Of a DNA stretch of 45,359 nucleotides, positions 30,268-38,538 are shown piece after piece (the stretch's first letter is position 1; the number at the start of each line of letters is the position of its first letter). The stretch comes from Escherichia phage Mt1B1_P10. The stretch is from the sequence record MT496971.1; one strand, written 5' to 3'. Position numbers and translations under genes: made by a program. The notes under the pieces are model-generated. The model saw only the letters and a program-made list of their open reading frames with translations. It did not search any database and was not told the origin of the DNA.

Positions 30268-31074
30268 TTAATATTCCGCGTCCTCATCCATCTCCGGTGC
30301 AGGAGTATCTTCTGCTTCAGGTACTTCCTGTGGAACAGACTCACCAGTATCCATAGATTTACGATTAGCTGGGGTAGCATCTTCCTCGTCTTTCTTCTTA
30401 GCCTTCTTCCATTCAGGGTCTTCTTCACGAGCAGCTTTGATAATAGCTTCTACGTGAGAGCCAGCAACAGACAGGTTCTTACCACGAGGTGTCTCGTTCA
30501 GGAAGTATTGACGTACCAAGTTAGCTGGGATGTCATCAAGGATTTCTTTGGTCAGCTTGTCGAAGGTGATATGACCTGTCATAGACAGACCTTCCTCTTC
30601 TACCTGAGCCAGTACAAGCTTCTTCAACTTATCAGGCATACCGCCAAAGCCTTTCCAGTTAACATACTTGAAAGTACCATCATCATTCTTGTCGCCAGAG
30701 CCAACCATAGTTGCAGTCAGACATTCACCGATAAAATCATCGAAGCCACCCAGCAACTCTTTAGGGTCAACTGCATTCAGGAACTTAGTCAGTGTTGCCT
30801 TATCACCAGACTTCAGAGGCACAGCCATCCATTGTTCCATGCGAGAATCATCTTCATTCTTATCGTCGTCACCCATCAGGATAATCTTAACAAGAACAAA
30901 GTTTGCTGGCTTCTTAACTTCAGTGGTATTACCTTTCTTAAAGATATCTTGGAAGGAACCAACATGAATGATGCCAGAGATTACTGCTTCATGATCACCA
31001 ACTTCAGGGTTCTTAAATACTTTACCTTCAGCTTTAGTAACCTGAGCACCAAAATCAAAATCACCACGTGCCAT
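30268..31074 (-). CDS. Hypothetical acidic-tailed protein, possible ssDNA-binding protein, 268 aa
   Basis: ATG with SD AGGAGA downstream of a promoter; acidic C-terminal tail ending ...EMDEDAEY, reminiscent of T7 gp2.5. SSB assignment is inference only. Confidence 0.45.
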   Translation of the reverse strand: MARGDFDFGAQVTKAEGKVFKNPEVGDHEAVISGIIHVGSFQDIFKKGNTTEVKKPANFVLVKIILMGDDDKNEDDSRMEQWMAVPLKSGDKATLTKFLNAVDPKELLGGFDDFIGECLTATMVGSGDKNDDGTFKYVNWKGFGGMPDKLKKLVLAQVEEEGLSMTGHITFDKLTKEILDDIPANLVRQYFLNETPRGKNLSVAGSHVEAIIKAAREEDPEWKKAKKKDEEDATPANRKSMDTGESVPQEVPEAEDTPAPEMDEDAEY

Positions 31075-31153: not shown

Positions 31154-31448
31154 ACTTATGAACTACCTTAATACGTGCAATAGTATCTAGAGGGTAGACA
31201 TAACTAACACATTCACCATCTTCAACCTCTTGTACATTTACACTAGCCATAGTGTCACAAAGTGAAAGGCTCAATTGATGACAAGTTTCACCTTGAGTAA
31301 ACTCTGGACCACGATATGCATCTGCTTGTTCCACAGTAGTGATTGCTGTATCGTCTTCTTTAGCCAGACGAGTGTGACCTGCAACTTTACGCTGCTCTAG
31401 ATCACGAAAGATGATACCTACATGTTTAGCTTGAATCACTTCTTCCAT
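31152..31448 (-). CDS. Hypothetical protein, 98 aa
   Basis: ATG with SD AAGGGG. Confidence 0.45.
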   Translation of the reverse strand: MEEVIQAKHVGIIFRDLEQRKVAGHTRLAKEDDTAITTVEQADAYRGPEFTQGETCHQLSLSLCDTMASVNVQEVEDGECVSYVYPLDTIARIKVVHK

Positions 31449-31457
31449 CATAACCCC

Positions 31458-31835
31458 TTATTTAGTCAAGTTGTCCAGTTCTATTTCCAGCATAACAATC
31501 TCTTTCTTCAGGCTGTCAGATGCAGCTTGATTTACAAGAGCAATTGATGCCTTGTTCTCTTCAAATTCAGCTTTCAGGCTGTCACGCTCTTGCTGGTGAC
31601 GTGCCAGCATATCTTCTACCTCTTTGACTTGACGTGCATTTAGTTCATCACGAGATGCATAGTAGCGGTTATGGCAGTCAATCATTTGAGAACTACGATG
31701 TTCTTCAACTTTAACTTGCTCTGCCTGTACTGCTTCGATGCGAGCCTCAATAGCTTTGATAGCCTTGGACTTGAACTTATTAGCAAGACCACGAAAGTAT
31801 TGAGCCACGAATACCAGAGTAGTTACCATAGACAT
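31458..31835 (-). CDS. Hypothetical coiled-coil protein, 125 aa
   Basis: ATG with SD AGGAGA downstream of a promoter; heptad-like charged repeats. Confidence 0.5.
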   Translation of the reverse strand: MSMVTTLVFVAQYFRGLANKFKSKAIKAIEARIEAVQAEQVKVEEHRSSQMIDCHNRYYASRDELNARQVKEVEDMLARHQQERDSLKAEFEENKASIALVNQAASDSLKKEIVMLEIELDNLTK

Positions 31836-31904
31836 ATTTATATCTCCTATATTTACTTAATTACCTATACTACCTTATAAACCTAGATTACCTAGGCTTT
31901 CCTT

Positions 31905-31922
31905 CTATAGTGTCCAGTAAAT
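31905..31922 (-). promoter_or_regulatory. Phage RNAP promoter
   Basis: Minus-strand ATTTACTGGACACTATAGAAGGAAAG. Confidence 0.75.
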
Positions 31923-32204
31923 CATGTTAGACAAAATAAGTAGGAATAAGTTATTCATAAAGGCCACCCGTAAGTGACCTTGAGTATAACTCAGTCGTAG
32001 TTACCATCACAATCTGGGTCAATGCCAGAGAAAGCCCAGAATACTACCATAAATAATATGATCCCAAGAATGATAAAAGCAGTTTGCATCAATCGTAACC
32101 CTACTCTTCATCAGGTATATCTAATCGCATACTTCCATAGCAAGCAAGCATAAGGAATATAAGAAAGAAGATAGAGAATAGGCAAACAACATCAAACCTG
32201 TCCA

Positions 32205-34751
32205 TCAGTGTGTTTCCTTCCAGCTTGCACCAATCTTATACTCACCTGCCATCGGACAACGCATCTTCAAATAATGACCAGCCCAAGTCATTGCATCGGC
32301 AATGATATGCCCTGCACGGTGATAACGACGCTGGCAATGAAGTACACCAGCATCAGCATCAACGCTAACGAGATTTGCAGCAGACCACATACGTCCTTCA
32401 GAATCCACATGAACACGTTTCTCCTCTGCATCGAACACTGCTTTCACAGCAGCCTTCTCTGTTTCGAACCCTTCTAAGGTGAAAGGCAAGTCGTAGTTGA
32501 GATACAAGACCTCATCTTCAGGGACTTCCATCTGGATTTCATCGTGCACGTTAGCCACACCGCAAGGGTTTCCCATACTATCTAGAGCCACACCCTCCTT
32601 GCGCATCACTGCAAACGCTCTGACCAATGCGTATTTCATACACAAAGAGCCAGTCATCTGGAGTAATACGTTGAGCATAGTGTGCTCTTTAAGTTCACCA
32701 CCAGACATACGGATGCGACCCCAATGCCCATCAGGTGCTTGTAGATAGCCAAACTTGTTACCTTGTGCGATAACACTCTCACGAAGACGTGCAAGAGATG
32801 GTAGTTCAATCTCAAATCTTGCCACAACTTCCTTCATTTCTCCCTCAGTAACACCGCATACTGCTGCAAGGTTAGCTATACCAGATCCATAGAGGAAGGC
32901 ATATATAAATGTCTTCGCCATGTCACGCTTGGGAAGACCAGCCTTCATCTGGTTATGAGTATGTATATCGCCATGCAGTACAATATCTTGATACTCAGGG
33001 TCATTCATGAAGTGAGATAGTACACGTAGTTCAAGACCAGCACCATCACAACCAAGGATTAGCTTACCTTTACCTGCTATGAATAAATCACGTAAAGGAT
33101 ACAAGCCACGGGCAGGAATATTAACCACGTTACGATGACGCATACGGAACGTAGAAGTACCAATGCTAATAGCAATAGCTGGAACACGCCACTCTCCGTC
33201 ATCTTTGTCAGACGTAGGCCAACACCCGTACCTCTCGTAGTATTGCTGCGCATTGATTCCTAGCTCCTTGTTGAATGCTACAGGTACAAGGCCGCGACAC
33301 TTTCGTACACCAGCCTGCGAGGGCCACGCTCCCTTCTGATTGAAGGCTTCAACGTCACCACGGTTGAGTATCTGACCGCGACGGGATACGAGTATGTACC
33401 ATGCAGCGATACCCAAGCACCAATCAGGGACTGTTTTACCTTCACGTGCGGATCTTTCCTGCCATAAAGTAAGGGACTTCTCATTTATCTTACCACTCCA
33501 AGGCTGAGGTAGGACACCATTTTCATCAAGATAGGCTTGCTCTTTATCGTTGAACTCCACACCTCTCCAGCCATAGTCGTAGAGTACTTGCTTAACGGTG
33601 TCACGGTTTCCCAAGGGAATCTCTTCAAACGTAACGGGAGAGTAAGCGCCAATCCACTTGATACTTGGCGTGTCATTACGGTTTCCTCTAAGGTGAGGAA
33701 AGTCTTTCTTGACGCTAGCCGACCAATCACCAGACTTAGTAGTGACACTCCATACTGTCTTGCGATCTCCTCGTCTCTCTGCGTGAAGAAAGTGAGAGGG
33801 GTCAAGGACAGTAGGTATATTGTTGCTAGCTCCATACTCATTTGCGCGTTGGCATACTTCATTCTTTTCTTCCGGTTTAAAAGGTTTAGACTTGATACGC
33901 ATAGGCATGTGCGGACGGAACGCTGCGACTGTCTCATCAATCTTAGCGTCCAATTCCTCGCATCGTGCTAATGCTTTATCTATATCCAGACGGAATCCAC
34001 GCTCGGCCTGACGGCTCATCTCCAGCGCCACAATGGACTCCATGTGGAAGGCTGTCTCAATACCTAGGCCAGTGCGTTTATTCACGCCACGGCGTTTGTG
34101 CTCCGTCCATTCTCCGTTAAATAGCCAGAGGAATAGGTCACGGCCTATCGCCACGTCCTCGCGTACACGATGTACCATGTGGTCAGTTAGTTTAGACCAA
34201 TCCTCGTTCTCCGGCTTATAACGGCCTATACGAATGCCGTGCGCCTCAATTGAGTGAGGGGCTACGTTACCCATGCCTTTGGCGTATGCTTGCGGAGGGA
34301 GGCGTCTATCGGGGTTTAACAGGCGACTCATGACCAGCGTATCCATGACGCGTACCGGACACAGGTCAGCGCGGAGTCTGCCCTTGCCGCGTCTCTCGGT
34401 ATAGTTAAAGCCTTTCCAGATATCAGGGAATGCTTTCTCAAATAGAAGGCCGTCGTACCCTAGGAAGTTCTGCGACACAATAGCTTCACAGTGCTTCAGG
34501 AAGTTAACACCATCAACCAAGTCACCATCTTGATGACCTTCCCATTCCTTCAGGTGTTCTCTTGCTTCAGGGTCACGCATCTCATATGGGTCGAAGAAGA
34601 GGAACTCCTCAGTGGTGAGCAAGTCCATGCAGCAAATGATGTGTACATCTTCGCGATGACCGTAGCGGATAGCATCCAGCAGACCTTTAGCTTCCGCATC
34701 CATTACTAAGATACGCCCTTCTGCTTCCTTCTTCCAATCAATTGATTTCAT
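32205..34751 (-). CDS. DNA polymerase, family A (T7 gp5-like), 848 aa
   Basis: 3'-5' exonuclease motif VMDAEAKGL; Pol A motif B RDMAKTFIYAFLYGSG; motif C VHDEIQ. Start moved to ATG at 34751 (SD GGAG). Confidence 0.9.
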   Translation of the reverse strand: MKSIDWKKEAEGRILVMDAEAKGLLDAIRYGHREDVHIICCMDLLTTEEFLFFDPYEMRDPEAREHLKEWEGHQDGDLVDGVNFLKHCEAIVSQNFLGYDGLLFEKAFPDIWKGFNYTERRGKGRLRADLCPVRVMDTLVMSRLLNPDRRLPPQAYAKGMGNVAPHSIEAHGIRIGRYKPENEDWSKLTDHMVHRVREDVAIGRDLFLWLFNGEWTEHKRRGVNKRTGLGIETAFHMESIVALEMSRQAERGFRLDIDKALARCEELDAKIDETVAAFRPHMPMRIKSKPFKPEEKNEVCQRANEYGASNNIPTVLDPSHFLHAERRGDRKTVWSVTTKSGDWSASVKKDFPHLRGNRNDTPSIKWIGAYSPVTFEEIPLGNRDTVKQVLYDYGWRGVEFNDKEQAYLDENGVLPQPWSGKINEKSLTLWQERSAREGKTVPDWCLGIAAWYILVSRRGQILNRGDVEAFNQKGAWPSQAGVRKCRGLVPVAFNKELGINAQQYYERYGCWPTSDKDDGEWRVPAIAISIGTSTFRMRHRNVVNIPARGLYPLRDLFIAGKGKLILGCDGAGLELRVLSHFMNDPEYQDIVLHGDIHTHNQMKAGLPKRDMAKTFIYAFLYGSGIANLAAVCGVTEGEMKEVVARFEIELPSLARLRESVIAQGNKFGYLQAPDGHWGRIRMSGGELKEHTMLNVLLQMTGSLCMKYALVRAFAVMRKEGVALDSMGNPCGVANVHDEIQMEVPEDEVLYLNYDLPFTLEGFETEKAAVKAVFDAEEKRVHVDSEGRMWSAANLVSVDADAGVLHCQRRYHRAGHIIADAMTWAGHYLKMRCPMAGEYKIGASWKETH

Positions 34752-34956
34752 AGATTGCTCCAAAGTATTTAACTCTAAGACTTTTACCTAATACAGAATC
34801 AGGTGTAGCTTTAAGATCAAGATACATTAAGTGCATGTGGTATTTATTATTGTGATCTCTCTGCCTTTTAGTGCGGCAGTTTTCACACTTACCATCAACA
34901 CGACTGCGATAGCCTTTACCGCAAGAGCAAACCTTGCTTAATTTAATAGTCTTCAT
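34738..34956 (-). CDS. Zinc-ribbon protein, 72 aa
   Basis: CxC...CxxC (VCSCGKGYRSRVDGKCENC); start taken at ATG at 34956 (SD AGAGG). Confidence 0.5.
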   Translation of the reverse strand: MKTIKLSKVCSCGKGYRSRVDGKCENCRTKRQRDHNNKYHMHLMYLDLKATPDSVLGKSLRVKYFGAIYEIN

Positions 34957-36552: not shown

Positions 36553-38538
36553 TCAGAACTCACTTTCTTCATCGAAGTTAGTCTCTTCTATAGTGTCCGG
36601 TAAATCAGGCACCTCTTGCTGCCTTGCTTCACCTGTATCAAATGACTTAGTACGGGCTTGTGGTTCCATCAAACGTCCGGTCTGAATGTCACCTTTAAGC
36701 ATGACCTTGGTTCCAGTCCAGATACCTTGGTCGCGGTCTTTGACACATGAGATGTACGTGGTAGTCCTTTCGTCAAGCGTTTCAGCTCTTGTATTACGCT
36801 CAATCCCCAAGGCGTAAGATGCCCAGAATCCGATAGCGCCTGAGCCTCGGAAGTCAGAAAGGATAACTTCGCCACCTTCTTCGTGTTGGGTACGGTTTGC
36901 CGGAGGACGTGTAAGGTGTGATACAAGGAATATAGTAACCGGGTGTCGGTCTTTGATAGTACCAATCCGCTTGACGCATTCATCAAGTGCACCAACCTTC
37001 CCACCAAAAGCACGCTCATCTAATTTAATCCCCGTTAAGTTATCAATGATGATATTAGAAATGCCCATAGCCTCAAACTCTAGGCAAGTTTGCTCTACCT
37101 TTTCCATCGAATAGTCACCCTCTAGGTCAGCCACAAACAGCTTACCTGTATCAGCTACATAATCAATGGCGGCGTTAGCTTCTTCCTCGGTGTAGTCGAA
37201 CACCTCACGGTATCCATCTTCTTTCGGGTCGTTGGTTGGCGGTAACTCAATACGCTTATCAATCCACTTGCCGATAAAAGCACGGGACACCTTGACCATC
37301 GGGTCTTCTGTAGAAATGATGCCTACAGATTCACCGTGTTCTTCAATGAGGTGCTTAACTACTTCACGAAGGAACTCAGTCTTACCTACACCAGACCCTG
37401 CACCTACAATGATAAGCTGGTTCTTACGAATACCTAGCGTTACCTTGTTCAGCTTAGGCCAAGGCCATGATAGCCCTTGCTCTGGACGTGCAGCCTTGAG
37501 CTTATCCCTTTGAGATGCGATAGATTTAATCTGGCTACCAAAGACTTCATCAGATGACTTGGCATTAAACCAAGCATCAACAAACTCTTTAGCCTTGCCA
37601 GCCATCAATGCCTTGTTAGCATCTTTGCAACCAGAAGGGTATTCAAGGATATAGGATTTGCCAGGAAACAGGCGAGCCGCTTGCTGATTCTGCTTCTGCC
37701 CTACCTCATCTCCATCAAAACCCCATATAATCTTCTTAAATTGGGCGATGTGTTCACGGTTCTGTACTATCTCTTCAAGGCAAGACTCACCTTTATTGAC
37801 AGACCATACATGGTAAGGCTGGCCTTCCCACTTAGTACCCTTGGCAGAATCAAGGAGCATTTGCTGTGCTGCTAGTGCATCCAGTTCGCCGCCCACAATA
37901 AGCAAGCAATCCTTTCGTCTTCCCTTGTCTAACACGTGAGACAAAGTATTCATACCGAAAAGATCTTGCATACCAAAGAGTTTACCTAAATGACCAAACT
38001 TAAAGTCTTTAGGTAATGTGCGACACTTAGCGCCTACTAGCTCACCTTTCTCGAATCGTGGATAGTAATGCCGTGAGACTCTACCATCTTCATCGTGTCC
38101 GACACGTACATCGTACAATGCGCAAATGTCGCCGCGAATGTGTCGGGAAACAAGATTCTTACGCTTAAGCGTGAGGAACCATTCAACATCAAGTTTCCAC
38201 TCTGTTTCTTGGTCTGTCCTTTCTTGCTCATTCATGACCTCCCAACGGTCTTTCATACGCATGGCACCTAATGCCAATGCGCGGTCTTCTGTTGTCTTAA
38301 TCTTCCCTTCTTTAATGAGGTCTTGGAACTGACTAACAGTCCACTTAGTTGCCCCAAGAGGTAGGTCTAGAATATTAGAAGACTCTCCAGCTTTCTCATA
38401 ATAAGGCTTACCATTACTATGAAAATGTGCACGGTTGCAATATTTACCGCCGTCATCAAACCAGATTAAATGATTTTGGCTACGATCGTGACCATTGCGA
38501 GCACATTCGGGGCACACAGAATTATTTATAATAGCCAT
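36553..38538 (-). CDS. DNA primase/helicase (T7 gp4-like), 661 aa
   Basis: N-terminal zinc ribbon CPECARNGHD...CNRAH; Walker A GAGSGVGKT; acidic C-terminus ending ...NFDEESEF. Confidence 0.9.
   Translation of the reverse strand: MAIINNSVCPECARNGHDRSQNHLIWFDDGGKYCNRAHFHSNGKPYYEKAGESSNILDLPLGATKWTVSQFQDLIKEGKIKTTEDRALALGAMRMKDRWEVMNEQERTDQETEWKLDVEWFLTLKRKNLVSRHIRGDICALYDVRVGHDEDGRVSRHYYPRFEKGELVGAKCRTLPKDFKFGHLGKLFGMQDLFGMNTLSHVLDKGRRKDCLLIVGGELDALAAQQMLLDSAKGTKWEGQPYHVWSVNKGESCLEEIVQNREHIAQFKKIIWGFDGDEVGQKQNQQAARLFPGKSYILEYPSGCKDANKALMAGKAKEFVDAWFNAKSSDEVFGSQIKSIASQRDKLKAARPEQGLSWPWPKLNKVTLGIRKNQLIIVGAGSGVGKTEFLREVVKHLIEEHGESVGIISTEDPMVKVSRAFIGKWIDKRIELPPTNDPKEDGYREVFDYTEEEANAAIDYVADTGKLFVADLEGDYSMEKVEQTCLEFEAMGISNIIIDNLTGIKLDERAFGGKVGALDECVKRIGTIKDRHPVTIFLVSHLTRPPANRTQHEEGGEVILSDFRGSGAIGFWASYALGIERNTRAETLDERTTTYISCVKDRDQGIWTGTKVMLKGDIQTGRLMEPQARTKSFDTGEARQQEVPDLPDTIEETNFDEESEF
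36588..36605 (-). promoter_or_regulatory. Phage RNAP promoter (within primase 3' end)
   Basis: Minus-strand ATTTACCGGACACTATAGAAGAGAC. Confidence 0.7.

What the first reader, a model, noticed from the sequence alone, without database searches (positions are those of the whole stretch)
31991..32205. Two tandem small membrane peptides just downstream of the DNA polymerase gene
Two ORFs below the track cutoff: 32101-32205 (34 aa, MDRFDVVCLFSIFFLIFLMLACYGSMRLDIPDEE, ATG overlapping the polymerase stop) and 31991-32089 (32 aa, MQTAFIILGIILFMVVFWAFSGIDPDCDGNYD). Both have one hydrophobic segment and a short acidic tail. Such peptides could act in superinfection exclusion or membrane remodelling.
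Basis: seen in the sequence. Interest (0 to 1): 0.5.

Follow-up and report, generated by a model that had tools for sequence, protein, structure and literature searches.

The report
Two small phage membrane-peptide genes
The two tiny ORFs after the DNA polymerase gene are real, conserved genes (13.5 and 14 of K1E/K1-5/SP6-type phages), already annotated in public records, that encode single-helix membrane peptides with acidic tails and unknown function; this genome's copy of 13.5 has a private premature stop.

Summary
The window is a K1E-like Vectrevirus with its genes on the minus strand. The two ORFs are the annotated genes 13.5 and 14 of K1E/K1-5 (gene 14 is SP6 gp15), in PHROGs 15860 and 4539, both of unknown function. 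Both are under purifying selection: pN/pS is 0.22, against 0.77-0.89 in shifted frames, 0.20 for the DNAP 3' end and 0.25 for gene 15. The acidic tails are the most constrained part (about 0.1). Each peptide is predicted as one strong transmembrane helix followed by a flexible acidic tail. The genes are the last cistrons of the DNA-metabolism operon, coupled through TGATG overlaps and followed by a conserved hairpin and an exact phage promoter. They are dispensable modules: natural genomes carry both genes, either one, or neither. New here: in this genome a private G-to-T change at 32103 cuts off the otherwise invariant EGYD end of gp13.5 (34 aa instead of 38) and destroys the GGAGG ribosome-binding site of gene 14. 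Function remains unknown. Superinfection exclusion is possible but untested. No homology was found to any characterised protein. The genes are already known and of low-to-moderate interest.

The parts
32205..34763 (-). DNA polymerase gene (K1E gene 13). Its TGA stop (32205-32207) overlaps the gene 13.5 ATG. Context only.
32215..32219 (-). Shine-Dalgarno-like AAGGA, 9 nt upstream of the gene 13.5 ATG, lying inside the last polymerase codons. SP6-type genomes use the same site for gene 14.
   Evidence: alignment A1
32101..32205 (-). Gene 13.5, truncated allele: 34 aa MDRFDVVCLFSIFFLIFLMLACYGSMRLDIPDEE plus TAG. One TM helix followed by an acidic tail. PHROG 15860.
32101..32103 (-). Private TAG stop at codon 35; all relatives have GAG. 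The G-to-T change at 32103 also converts the GGAGG Shine-Dalgarno of gene 14 to GTAGG.
32089..32100 (-). Ancestral 3' end of gene 13.5 (codons G-Y-D plus a TGA that overlaps the gene 14 ATG). It is untranslated in this genome.
31991..32089 (-). Gene 14 (SP6 gp15): 32 aa MQTAFIILGIILFMVVFWAFSGIDPDCDGNYD plus TGA. One TM helix, no basic residues, and the tail motif DPDxDGNYD is conserved in all 11 variants. PHROG 4539.
31944..31996 (-). Conserved hairpin directly after gene 14. Core stem AAGGUCACU/GGUGGCCUU lies at 31960-31981; the extended stem includes the gene 14 stop. It is a putative terminator or processing site closing the polymerase transcription unit, and is kept even in genomes that lack both peptides.
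   Evidence: dG -18.6 kcal/mol, z -3.5, 0 of 200 shuffles as stable
31901..31922 (-). Exact copy of the phage RNA-polymerase promoter consensus ATTTACTGGACACTATAGAAGG. It starts the next unit (gene 15).
   Evidence: 8 copies, all on the minus strand, 0 expected by chance

Best explanation
Genes 13.5 and 14 are genuine, lineage-restricted accessory genes of K1E/K1-5/SP6-type phages. Each encodes a roughly 32-38 aa bitopic inner-membrane micro-protein. The layout is a very short N-terminus, one transmembrane helix of about 19 residues, a conserved small-aromatic-small interface (ACYGS in gp13.5, WAFSG in gp14) and an invariant acidic tail ending in YD. SHOWN: they are the last cistrons of the phage-RNAP-driven DNA-metabolism operon. 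They are chained to the polymerase gene by TGATG stop/start overlaps, with each ribosome-binding site inside the preceding gene, and are followed by a conserved hairpin and the next phage promoter. Purifying selection is as strong as on the neighbouring polymerase 3' end and is strongest on the tails. The genes behave as dispensable modules: natural genomes carry both, only 13.5, only 14, or neither, with junctions at the short repeats that end each module. INFERRED: the peptides insert into the host inner membrane in mid-infection. The membrane-anchored acidic tail, together with the C-terminal half of the helix, is the working part, and it binds and modulates a host or phage membrane-proximal partner. 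That would make them a conditional fitness or host-interaction factor, with superinfection exclusion or defence/transport modulation as candidates, rather than a core replication or lysis function. In this genome a single G-to-T change removes the invariant EGYD end of gp13.5 and weakens the Shine-Dalgarno of gene 14, so both are probably hypomorphic here.
For: Identity: the window is 96-99% identical to K1E/K1-5-like Vectrevirus genomes, whose records annotate genes 13.5 and 14 at this position. PHROG 15860 matches at E 2.9e-25 and PHROG 4539 at E 2.9e-17. Distribution: gp14 is in 68 phage records and gp13.5 in 67. Selection: pN/pS is 0.22 for both against 0.77-0.89 in shifted frames; tails 0.12 and 0.09, N-terminus plus TM 0.37 and 0.31; controls are DNAP 0.20 and gene 15 0.25. 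The tail EEEGYD is kept through synonymous changes in 13.5-only genomes, where it no longer serves as an SD. Membrane character: KD19 is 2.68; AlphaFold2 gives single helices with pLDDT about 87-96 and low-confidence tails. Expression signals: AAGGA lies 9 nt before the 13.5 ATG, and GGAGG lies 10 nt before the gene 14 ATG in relatives. Operon boundaries: hairpin z -3.5 and the promoter family. Dispensability: all four architectures exist, and there are independent lesions (window TAG; frameshift variant P0003; 4-nt insertion in ULINTec6; broken gp14 in L014). Not lysis genes: K1E has its own holins, endolysin and spanin in the late region.
Against: There is no direct evidence of translation, membrane insertion or any phenotype, and no published functional data were found. 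Topology cannot be predicted: gp14 has no K, R or H at all, and gp13.5 has one Arg on each side of the helix. No homology to any characterised protein. gp14 forms a single 50%-identity cluster among 1.84 billion representatives. The partner-binding step is inference from the conservation pattern only. The pooled pairwise pN/pS is not corrected for phylogeny. Part of the constraint on gp13.5 codons 34-36 could come from their second role as the gene 14 SD.
Confidence: 0.75

Rival explanations
1. These are chance ORFs in a T-rich spacer or terminator region between the polymerase gene and the next promoter. They would not be translated genes.
For: They are very short. Annotation is inconsistent between records, and some omit one or both. 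Other overlapping small ORFs exist in the same stretch.
Against: Frame-specific purifying selection (0.22 against 0.77-0.89) equals that of neighbouring genes. Tails are kept invariant through synonymous changes. Start/stop overlaps and SD sites are conserved. No Rfam element is present.
Confidence: 0.03
2. Superinfection exclusion. The peptides sit in the inner membrane of the infected cell and block DNA ejection or channel formation by a second phage. This would resemble small membrane exclusion proteins such as T4 Imm/Sp or HK97 gp15 (recalled from the literature).
For: They have the size and single-pass membrane architecture. They are expressed with middle genes. They are dispensable and variably present, as accessory exclusion genes often are.
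Against: No sequence relationship to any exclusion protein. For a strictly lytic phage with a short cycle, the benefit of exclusion is less obvious. No experimental data were found.
Confidence: 0.15
3. Membrane-anchored mimics of replisome acidic tails. If the tails face the cytoplasm, the acidic tyrosine-containing ends (DEEEGYD, DCDGNYD) would bind the same basic patches of the DNA polymerase that receive the acidic C-terminal tails of the helicase and SSB in T7. That would dock or titrate the polymerase at the membrane.
For: The genes are translationally coupled to the polymerase gene. The phage's own primase-helicase ends in an acidic tail with a terminal aromatic residue...NFDEESEF, and gp16 ends in ...EMDEDAEY. 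In T7 the acidic SSB tail anchors to the front basic patch of the polymerase (bioRxiv 10.1101/2025.03.07.642097).
Against: The last residue is Asp, not an aromatic residue. Topology is unknown, and a short, strongly acidic tail may equally be exported. gp16 is not confirmed as an SSB (phrog_862 is 'unknown', and there is no PDB relative). SP6-like relatives replicate without one or both peptides.
Confidence: 0.07
4. Membrane-perturbing peptides. They would depolarise or permeabilise the inner membrane, giving host shut-off or lysis-timing help, in the manner of a holin or type I toxin.
For: The peptides are extremely hydrophobic and short. Two occur in tandem.
Against: They lie in the DNA-metabolism operon, not the lysis cassette, and the phage has its own holins, endolysin and spanin. 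The tails are acidic rather than basic. The strongest constraint is on a specific tail motif rather than on bulk hydrophobicity, which points to specific recognition.
Confidence: 0.1
5. Divalent-cation binding. The gp14 tail D24-P-D26-C-D28-G29-N-Y-D matches positions 1-9 of a DxDxDG/EF-hand-type calcium loop (motif recalled from the literature) and would bind Ca2+ or Mg2+ at the membrane surface.
For: The pattern D-P-D-x-D-G-N-Y-D is conserved in all 11 gp14 variants.
Against: The peptide ends at loop position 9, so the position-12 acidic ligand is missing. There is no Pfam EF-hand hit. gp13.5 does not fit the motif. A short acidic motif can match by chance.
Confidence: 0.05

Closest known systems
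K1E genes 13.5 (YP_424989) and 14 (YP_424990); K1-5 genes 13.5 and 14; SP6 gp15 in the Dobbins numbering; UAB_Phi78 orf21
   Same: These are the same genes. They have the same position after the DNA polymerase, the same stop/start overlaps, and 90-100% identity for gp14 and 68-100% for gp13.5. Public annotation says 'hypothetical protein' or 'Unknown' (PMC4837284).
   Different: The gp13.5 of this genome stops 4 codons early (34 aa against 38) through a private G-to-T change, which also damages the gene 14 Shine-Dalgarno.
PHROG families phrog_15860 and phrog_4539
   Same: Strong profile matches, at E 2.9e-25 and 2.9e-17.
   Different: Both families are labelled 'unknown function', so membership gives no mechanism.
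Small membrane superinfection-exclusion proteins (T4 Imm and Sp, HK97 gp15, P22 SieA; recalled from the literature)
   Same: Small phage-encoded inner-membrane proteins that are accessory and variably present.
   Different: No sequence similarity. Those proteins are larger, and no exclusion phenotype is known here.
E. coli MgtS and similar single-helix regulators of membrane transporters
   Same: About 31 aa with one TM helix and an acidic C-terminus. mgtS is also followed by a second small gene (mgtT) with a stop/start overlap. It shares the hexapeptide LGIILF with gp14.
   Different: The similarity is limited to a hydrophobic run (shuffle p 0.018, noticed post hoc, so not significant). MgtT is not a membrane peptide. 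This is not evidence of homology.
Acidic C-terminal tails of T7-type replisome proteins (gp4 helicase, gp2.5 SSB)
   Same: Short, strongly acidic tail with an aromatic residue near the end. The genes are linked to the polymerase gene, and the phage's own helicase has such a tail.
   Different: The aromatic residue is penultimate, not terminal. The tail is attached to a transmembrane helix, its topology is unknown, and no binding has been shown.

Membership tests
K1E gene 13.5 family (phrog_15860) | Sequence match to the family profile or its members | tested here: met
   E 2.9e-25 over residues 1-34; 100% identical to several K1E-like copies over the first 34 residues
K1E gene 13.5 family (phrog_15860) | Start codon overlapping the DNA polymerase stop codon | tested here: met
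   TGATG at 32203-32207; TAGTG with a GTG start in the R4596 type
K1E gene 13.5 family (phrog_15860) | Full length of 38 aa with the invariant C-terminus DEEEGYD and a stop overlapping the gene 14 ATG | tested here: not met
   TAG at codon 35 gives 34 aa, while all 23 other distinct variants keep DEEEGYD. This copy is a truncated allele of a family member.
K1E gene 14 / SP6 gp15 family (phrog_4539) | Sequence match, 32 aa length and the tail DPDxDGNYD | tested here: met
   E 2.9e-17; 100% identical to 17 records; tail conserved in all variants
K1E gene 14 / SP6 gp15 family (phrog_4539) | Position as the last cistron before the conserved hairpin and phage promoter | tested here: met
Superinfection-exclusion membrane proteins | Homology to a characterised exclusion protein | tested here: not met
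   No Pfam hit. The only PHROG hits are the two unknown-function families, plus phrog_1625 at a non-significant E 0.38. There is a single cluster in the exhaustive search.
Superinfection-exclusion membrane proteins | Blocks entry of a second phage when expressed | not testable with these tools
   Requires plating or DNA-entry assays.
Holins and lysis-cassette proteins | Located in the late lysis cassette next to the endolysin and spanin | tested here: not met
   The genes lie in the polymerase operon. K1E holins are genes 38 and 44, the endolysin is 43 and the spanin is 45.
Holins and lysis-cassette proteins | Charged, typically basic, C-terminal domain | tested here: not met
   The tails are net acidic, and gp14 has no basic residue. 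The feature itself is recalled from the literature.
EF-hand / DxDxDG calcium-binding loop | D-x-D-x-D-G at loop positions 1-6 | tested here: met
   gp14 D24-P-D26-C-D28-G29 (read directly from the sequence). gp13.5 does not fit.
EF-hand / DxDxDG calcium-binding loop | Acidic ligand at loop position 12, or a profile match | tested here: not met
   The peptide ends at loop position 9, and there is no Pfam hit.
MgtS-type small transporter regulators | Significant sequence similarity | tested here: not met
   Local score 33, z 2.85, shuffle p 0.018 for a comparison chosen post hoc, limited to LGIILF
T7-type replisome acidic C-terminal tails | Acidic tail whose last residue is aromatic | tested here: not met
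   The tails end in Y-D, whereas the phage's own helicase ends in ...EF and gp16 in ...EY.
T7-type replisome acidic C-terminal tails | Cytoplasmic exposure and binding to the DNA polymerase | not testable with these tools
   Topology cannot be determined from the charge distribution. Binding needs biochemistry.

The most novel reading that the evidence does not exclude
The two peptides are membrane-anchored decoys of the replisome's acidic C-terminal tails. They would be made in step with the polymerase through translational coupling and would present a cytoplasmic acidic, tyrosine-containing tail that docks the phage DNA polymerase at the inner membrane, or competes with the helicase and SSB tails. 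This would give SP6-type phages an optional membrane-tethered replication mode. A broader version is that a 'small membrane peptide slot' fused to the polymerase stop codon recurs in several unrelated SP6-like lineages (L034/L054, L035-L037, L056).
Probability: 0.06. Interest if true: 0.65.

Novelty: already known. Interest (0 to 1): 0.2.

Why it matters
As it stands, this is a confirmation. Two sub-40-aa ORFs that annotation pipelines often drop are real genes, under the same purifying selection as their neighbours. The result is useful for consistent annotation of Vectrevirus and Zindervirus therapeutic phages; several public records omit one or both genes. It also flags this isolate as carrying a probable double hypomorph, with a truncated gp13.5 and a damaged gene 14 ribosome-binding site. 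The natural both/either/neither variants and the invariant tails give a ready experimental design for finding the function of a phage micro-protein pair. If the function proved to be exclusion, defence evasion or membrane docking of replication, it would add a new small-protein mechanism. Nothing here shows that yet.

Tried and rejected
The workarounds were degenerate DNA patterns and a concatenated 70-aa query, which returned only gp13.5 clusters.

(2) The exhaustive representative search with gp14 found only its own cluster, so no remote relatives are detectable.

(3) MgtS resemblance: my recalled sequence was verified from the MG1655 record, but the similarity is not significant, so this lead was rejected.

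(4) Paralogy of gp13.5 and gp14: the pairwise shuffle gives p 0.03. hhalign aligns only the last 8 residues (PDEEEGYD against PDCDGNYD) at probability 4.5%. The HMMs do not cross-hit. Paralogy is unproven, and a shared tail motif xxPDx[DE]xxYD is all that can be said.

(5) Relationship to the small TM ORFs after the polymerase in distant lineages (L027, L056, L054, L035): no significant profile hits.

(6) The enrichment of small TM ORFs at the polymerase stop (12 of 58 loci against a background of 0.026) is inflated by relatedness. Only about 3-4 lineages are independent, so it is reported only as a passing observation.

(7) The metagenome scan for the gp13.5 tail returned 37 loci. Of these, 35 are unrelated proteins that match the short motif by chance.

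(8) There is no Rfam family in the stretch.

(9) gp16 could not be confirmed as the SSB, which weakens the tail-mimic idea.

(10) A polymerase-peptide fusion by frameshift or readthrough was considered. There is no slippery heptamer before the stop, and the readthrough frame is a different, unconserved ORF, so it was rejected by inspection only.
Full report
WHAT THE WINDOW IS. The stretch 31400-32700 is 96-99% identical to K1E/K1-5-like Escherichia phages (Vectrevirus, Molineuxvirinae, Autographiviridae), with SP6-type Salmonella phages as more distant relatives. All genes run on the minus strand.

THE OBSERVATION. On the minus strand the polymerase ORF ends ...AAG GAA ACA CAC TGA. The A of that TGA is the first base of ATG GAC AGG..., which opens a 34-codon ORF (32205 down to 32101, ending in TAG). 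Eleven bases later, ATG CAA ACT... opens a 32-codon ORF (32089 down to 31991, ending in TGA).

THE GENES ARE ALREADY ANNOTATED.
- K1E (NC_007637) and K1-5 (NC_008152) list genes 13.5 (117 nt) and 14 (99 nt) at exactly this position, as 'hypothetical protein'. Other records do the same.
- SP6 and UAB_Phi78 carry only the 32-aa gene, which is SP6 gp15 in the Dobbins numbering. A published annotation table lists it as 'Unknown' (PMC4837284).
- PHROGs place the peptides in phrog_15860 (E 2.9e-25) and phrog_4539 (E 2.9e-17), both of unknown function. Pfam has nothing.
- Annotation is inconsistent. Several records omit one or both genes although the sequence is present.

DISTRIBUTION.
- tblastn finds gp14 in 68 phage records (Vectrevirus and Zindervirus) and gp13.5 in 67 (Vectrevirus plus Citrobacter and Raoultella phages).
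- IMG/VR holds 9 and 7 copies respectively.
- JGI metagenomes hold only two phage-like copies.
- An exhaustive HMMER pass over 1.84 billion cluster representatives finds a single cluster for gp14.
- The large word-indexed collection returns only seven gp13.5 clusters.
- Both are therefore narrow, lineage-restricted orphans.

ARE THEY CODING? I extracted both ORFs from about 28 genomes (22 distinct gp13.5 and 13 distinct gp14 nucleotide sequences).
- Pooled Nei-Gojobori pN/pS is 0.22 for each gene in the annotated frame, against 0.77-0.89 in the two shifted frames.
- The last 150 polymerase codons give 0.20 and gene 15 gives 0.25 in the same genomes.
- Constraint is uneven. The acidic tails give 0.12 (gp13.5) and 0.09 (gp14), while the N-terminus plus helix give 0.37 and 0.31.
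- Column conservation agrees. In gp13.5, LM-ACYGS and DEEEGYD are invariant. In gp14, W-FSG-DPD-DGNYD is invariant or nearly so. The N-terminal half of each helix varies, but conservatively.
- In genomes that lack gene 14, the gp13.5 tail codons change synonymously (GAG to GAA, GGT to GGA) yet still encode EEEGYD. The constraint is therefore on the protein.
- These pooled pairwise figures are not corrected for phylogeny, but the shifted-frame control uses the same sequences.

WHAT THE PEPTIDES LOOK LIKE.
- Each has one 19-residue segment with a Kyte-Doolittle mean of 2.68, far above the usual 1.6 threshold.
- AlphaFold2 predicts one helix and a low-confidence tail. For gp14 the helix is residues 2-20 (pLDDT about 87-90) and the tail scores 57-62. 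For gp13.5 the helix is residues 3-28 with mean pLDDT 85.
- gp14 has no Lys, Arg or His. gp13.5 has one Arg on each side of the helix. The positive-inside rule therefore gives no orientation, and topology is open.
- The two tails share the pattern xxPDx[DE]xxYD at the C-terminus. Profile comparison aligns only those eight residues (hhalign probability 4.5%), and the HMMs do not cross-hit. A common origin is possible but unproven.

EXPRESSION CONTEXT.
- The phage promoter consensus ATTTACTGGACACTATAGAAGG occurs eight times, all on the minus strand (0 expected by chance). One copy lies at 36584-36605, upstream of the polymerase block. An exact copy lies at 31901-31922, just downstream of gene 14.
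- Between gene 14 and that promoter lies a hairpin (core 31960-31981, dG -18.6 kcal/mol, z -3.5) that no shuffle matches. It is nearly invariant in relatives, including those without the peptides.
- Genes 13, 13.5 and 14 therefore close the DNA-metabolism transcription unit.
- AAGGA lies 9 nt before the 13.5 ATG, inside the last polymerase codons.
- In relatives, GGAGG, formed by gp13.5 codons 34-36, lies 10 nt before the gene 14 ATG, and the 13.5 TGA overlaps that ATG.
- This is a classic translationally coupled chain.

THE PRIVATE MUTATION.
- In this genome codon 35 of gene 13.5 is TAG, where every other sampled copy has GAG.
- No phage record matches the surrounding 70 nt exactly. The best hits differ by one base.
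- Both phage-like metagenome copies have GAG.
- The change removes the invariant EGYD end and turns GGAGG into GTAGG, so it probably lowers gene 14 initiation. Re-initiation 11 nt after the new stop remains possible; this is inference.
- Whether it is a genuine variant or a sequencing error cannot be decided here.
- Other lesions exist. A 61-aa frameshift product arises at the same GAGGAGGG spot in another genome (P0003). ULINTec6 has a 4-nt insertion in the T/C-rich tract of gene 13.5. L014 has a frame-broken gene 14.

A MODULAR, DISPENSABLE CASSETTE. The three junctions end in similar short sequences:
- ...CACAC TGATG (DNAP to 13.5)
- ...TACGAT TGATG (13.5 to 14)
- ...TACGAC TGA GTTATAC (14 to the hairpin)

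Natural genomes show every combination:
- both genes (K1E type)
- only gene 14, fused to the polymerase stop (SP6, UAB_Phi78, Kenya-K30, L008)
- only gene 13.5, fused to the gene 14 stop and hairpin (CrRp3, R4596, Raoultella P3a and others)
- neither gene, with the polymerase stop fused to the hairpin (L007)

Each variant keeps the polymerase stop, the hairpin and the promoter. This is consistent with loss or gain by recombination at the 5-9 nt microhomologies, but the direction of events was not established. Other relatives carry different genes at this site: a homing endonuclease before gene 13.5, an 86-aa ORF after the hairpin, or a 177-194-aa nucleotidyltransferase-like ORF. The site is thus a plasticity hot spot, and the peptides are accessory rather than core.

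FUNCTION.
- Nothing characterised is related to them, and I found no functional literature.
- They are not the lysis genes. K1E has holins (38, 44), an endolysin (43) and a spanin (45) in the late region.
- The conservation pattern, with an invariant tail and interface and a variable helix, argues for specific recognition by the membrane-anchored tail rather than bulk membrane damage. I therefore favour a modulator of a membrane-proximal partner as the working model. Superinfection exclusion is one candidate within it.
- Two more specific leads were examined.
  - gp14's DPDCDGNYD fits positions 1-9 of a DxDxDG calcium loop but lacks the position-12 ligand and any profile support.
  - The phage helicase ends in an acidic tail with a terminal aromatic residue (...NFDEESEF), like T7 gp4. 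The T7 SSB tail docks on a basic patch of the polymerase (bioRxiv 10.1101/2025.03.07.642097). The polymerase-coupled acidic tails could therefore be mimics. Against this, the last residue is Asp, topology is unknown, and gp16 could not be confirmed as an SSB.
- A resemblance to E. coli MgtS (shared LGIILF, and a tandem overlapped small-gene layout with mgtT) did not survive a shuffle test.

VERDICT. However, they are the known, annotated genes 13.5 and 14 of this phage group, with unknown function. New points from this analysis are the selection statistics, the tail-centred conservation, the modular four-state architecture, and the private nonsense and SD-destroying mutation in this genome. 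Novelty is 'already known' and interest is low to moderate.

Noticed in passing
L034/L054 (-13 relative to the DNAP stop), L035-L037 (+10 and +106), L056 (ATG on the DNAP stop): Other SP6-like lineages, with 43-59% identity in the polymerase C-terminus, also have one or two 28-42 aa strongly hydrophobic ORFs abutting the polymerase stop. Examples are MTPTNLLLLASFLLIIYSLLDDWNKPKY, MSIWFYIQATVLISVTLFIWVFIIVATFQK and MLGNIILYTLATIGGLMLGLLILLWLLATFISIDVEPFYDKD. They are not detectably related to gp13.5 or gp14. Only about 3-4 lineages are independent, so a recurrent 'membrane-peptide slot' is suggestive only.
   Followed up: partly
downstream of the DNAP stop in L009-L011, L016, L020, L030; L102 186-614; L006/L022/L097/L111 after the hairpin: The site after the polymerase gene is a plasticity hot spot. 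Some relatives carry a 177-194 aa ORF with a GGAVRDxLYG...PKDYD motif (which looks like a nucleotidyltransferase). NTNC80A has a homing endonuclease inserted between the polymerase gene and gene 13.5. Others have an 86-95 aa ORF between the hairpin and the promoter.
   Followed up: no
window 31458-31835 (-): RefSeq and PHROG 7450 name gene 15 (125 aa) 'polysaccharide chain length determinant protein'. Here it only gives sub-threshold Pfam hits, the best being UPF0242 at 17.8 bits against a cut-off of 33.5. It looks like a short coiled-coil protein with a mildly hydrophobic N-terminus, so the name seems unsupported.
   Followed up: partly
window 31836-31900 (-): The 65-nt leader between the promoter at 31901-31922 and the gene 15 ATG is AT-rich. 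It contains repeated TAGGT motifs and a small palindrome, CCTAGGTAATCTAGG (31882-31896), probably a 5' stem-loop of the transcript.
   Followed up: no
window 30268-31074 (-) and 36553-38538 (-): gp16 (268 aa, phrog_862, unknown function) ends in an acidic tail...PEMDEDAEY. The primase-helicase ends in ...NFDEESEF. These are T7-style acidic C-termini with a terminal aromatic residue. gp16 may be the phage SSB, but neither PHROGs nor a PDB sequence search confirms it.
   Followed up: partly
L001 339-923 (K1E genes 13.1 and 13.2); window 33485-33940 (-): The K1E record annotates two ORFs (13.1 and 13.2) inside the polymerase gene in another frame. The window has a corresponding 151-aa out-of-frame ORF. 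These are likely spurious overlapping ORFs, but this was not tested.
   Followed up: no
L003 1207-1296 (UTI89UKE2_014); window about 31905-31994 (-): One public record annotates a third 29-aa ORF that overlaps the end of gene 14 and runs through the hairpin. It has no hydrophobic segment and covers the conserved terminator-like structure, so it is probably an annotation artefact.
   Followed up: no
L116, L118, L121, L130, L133, L138, L143-L145 (metagenome contigs): The degenerate pattern for IPDEExGYD also hit a recurrent but unrelated protein family of about 270 aa. It contains ...AIVIPDEERGYDGRGDWHFDDFTPTPGEDEE and occurs in several metagenomes. This is a chance motif match with no link to the phage genes.
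   Followed up: no
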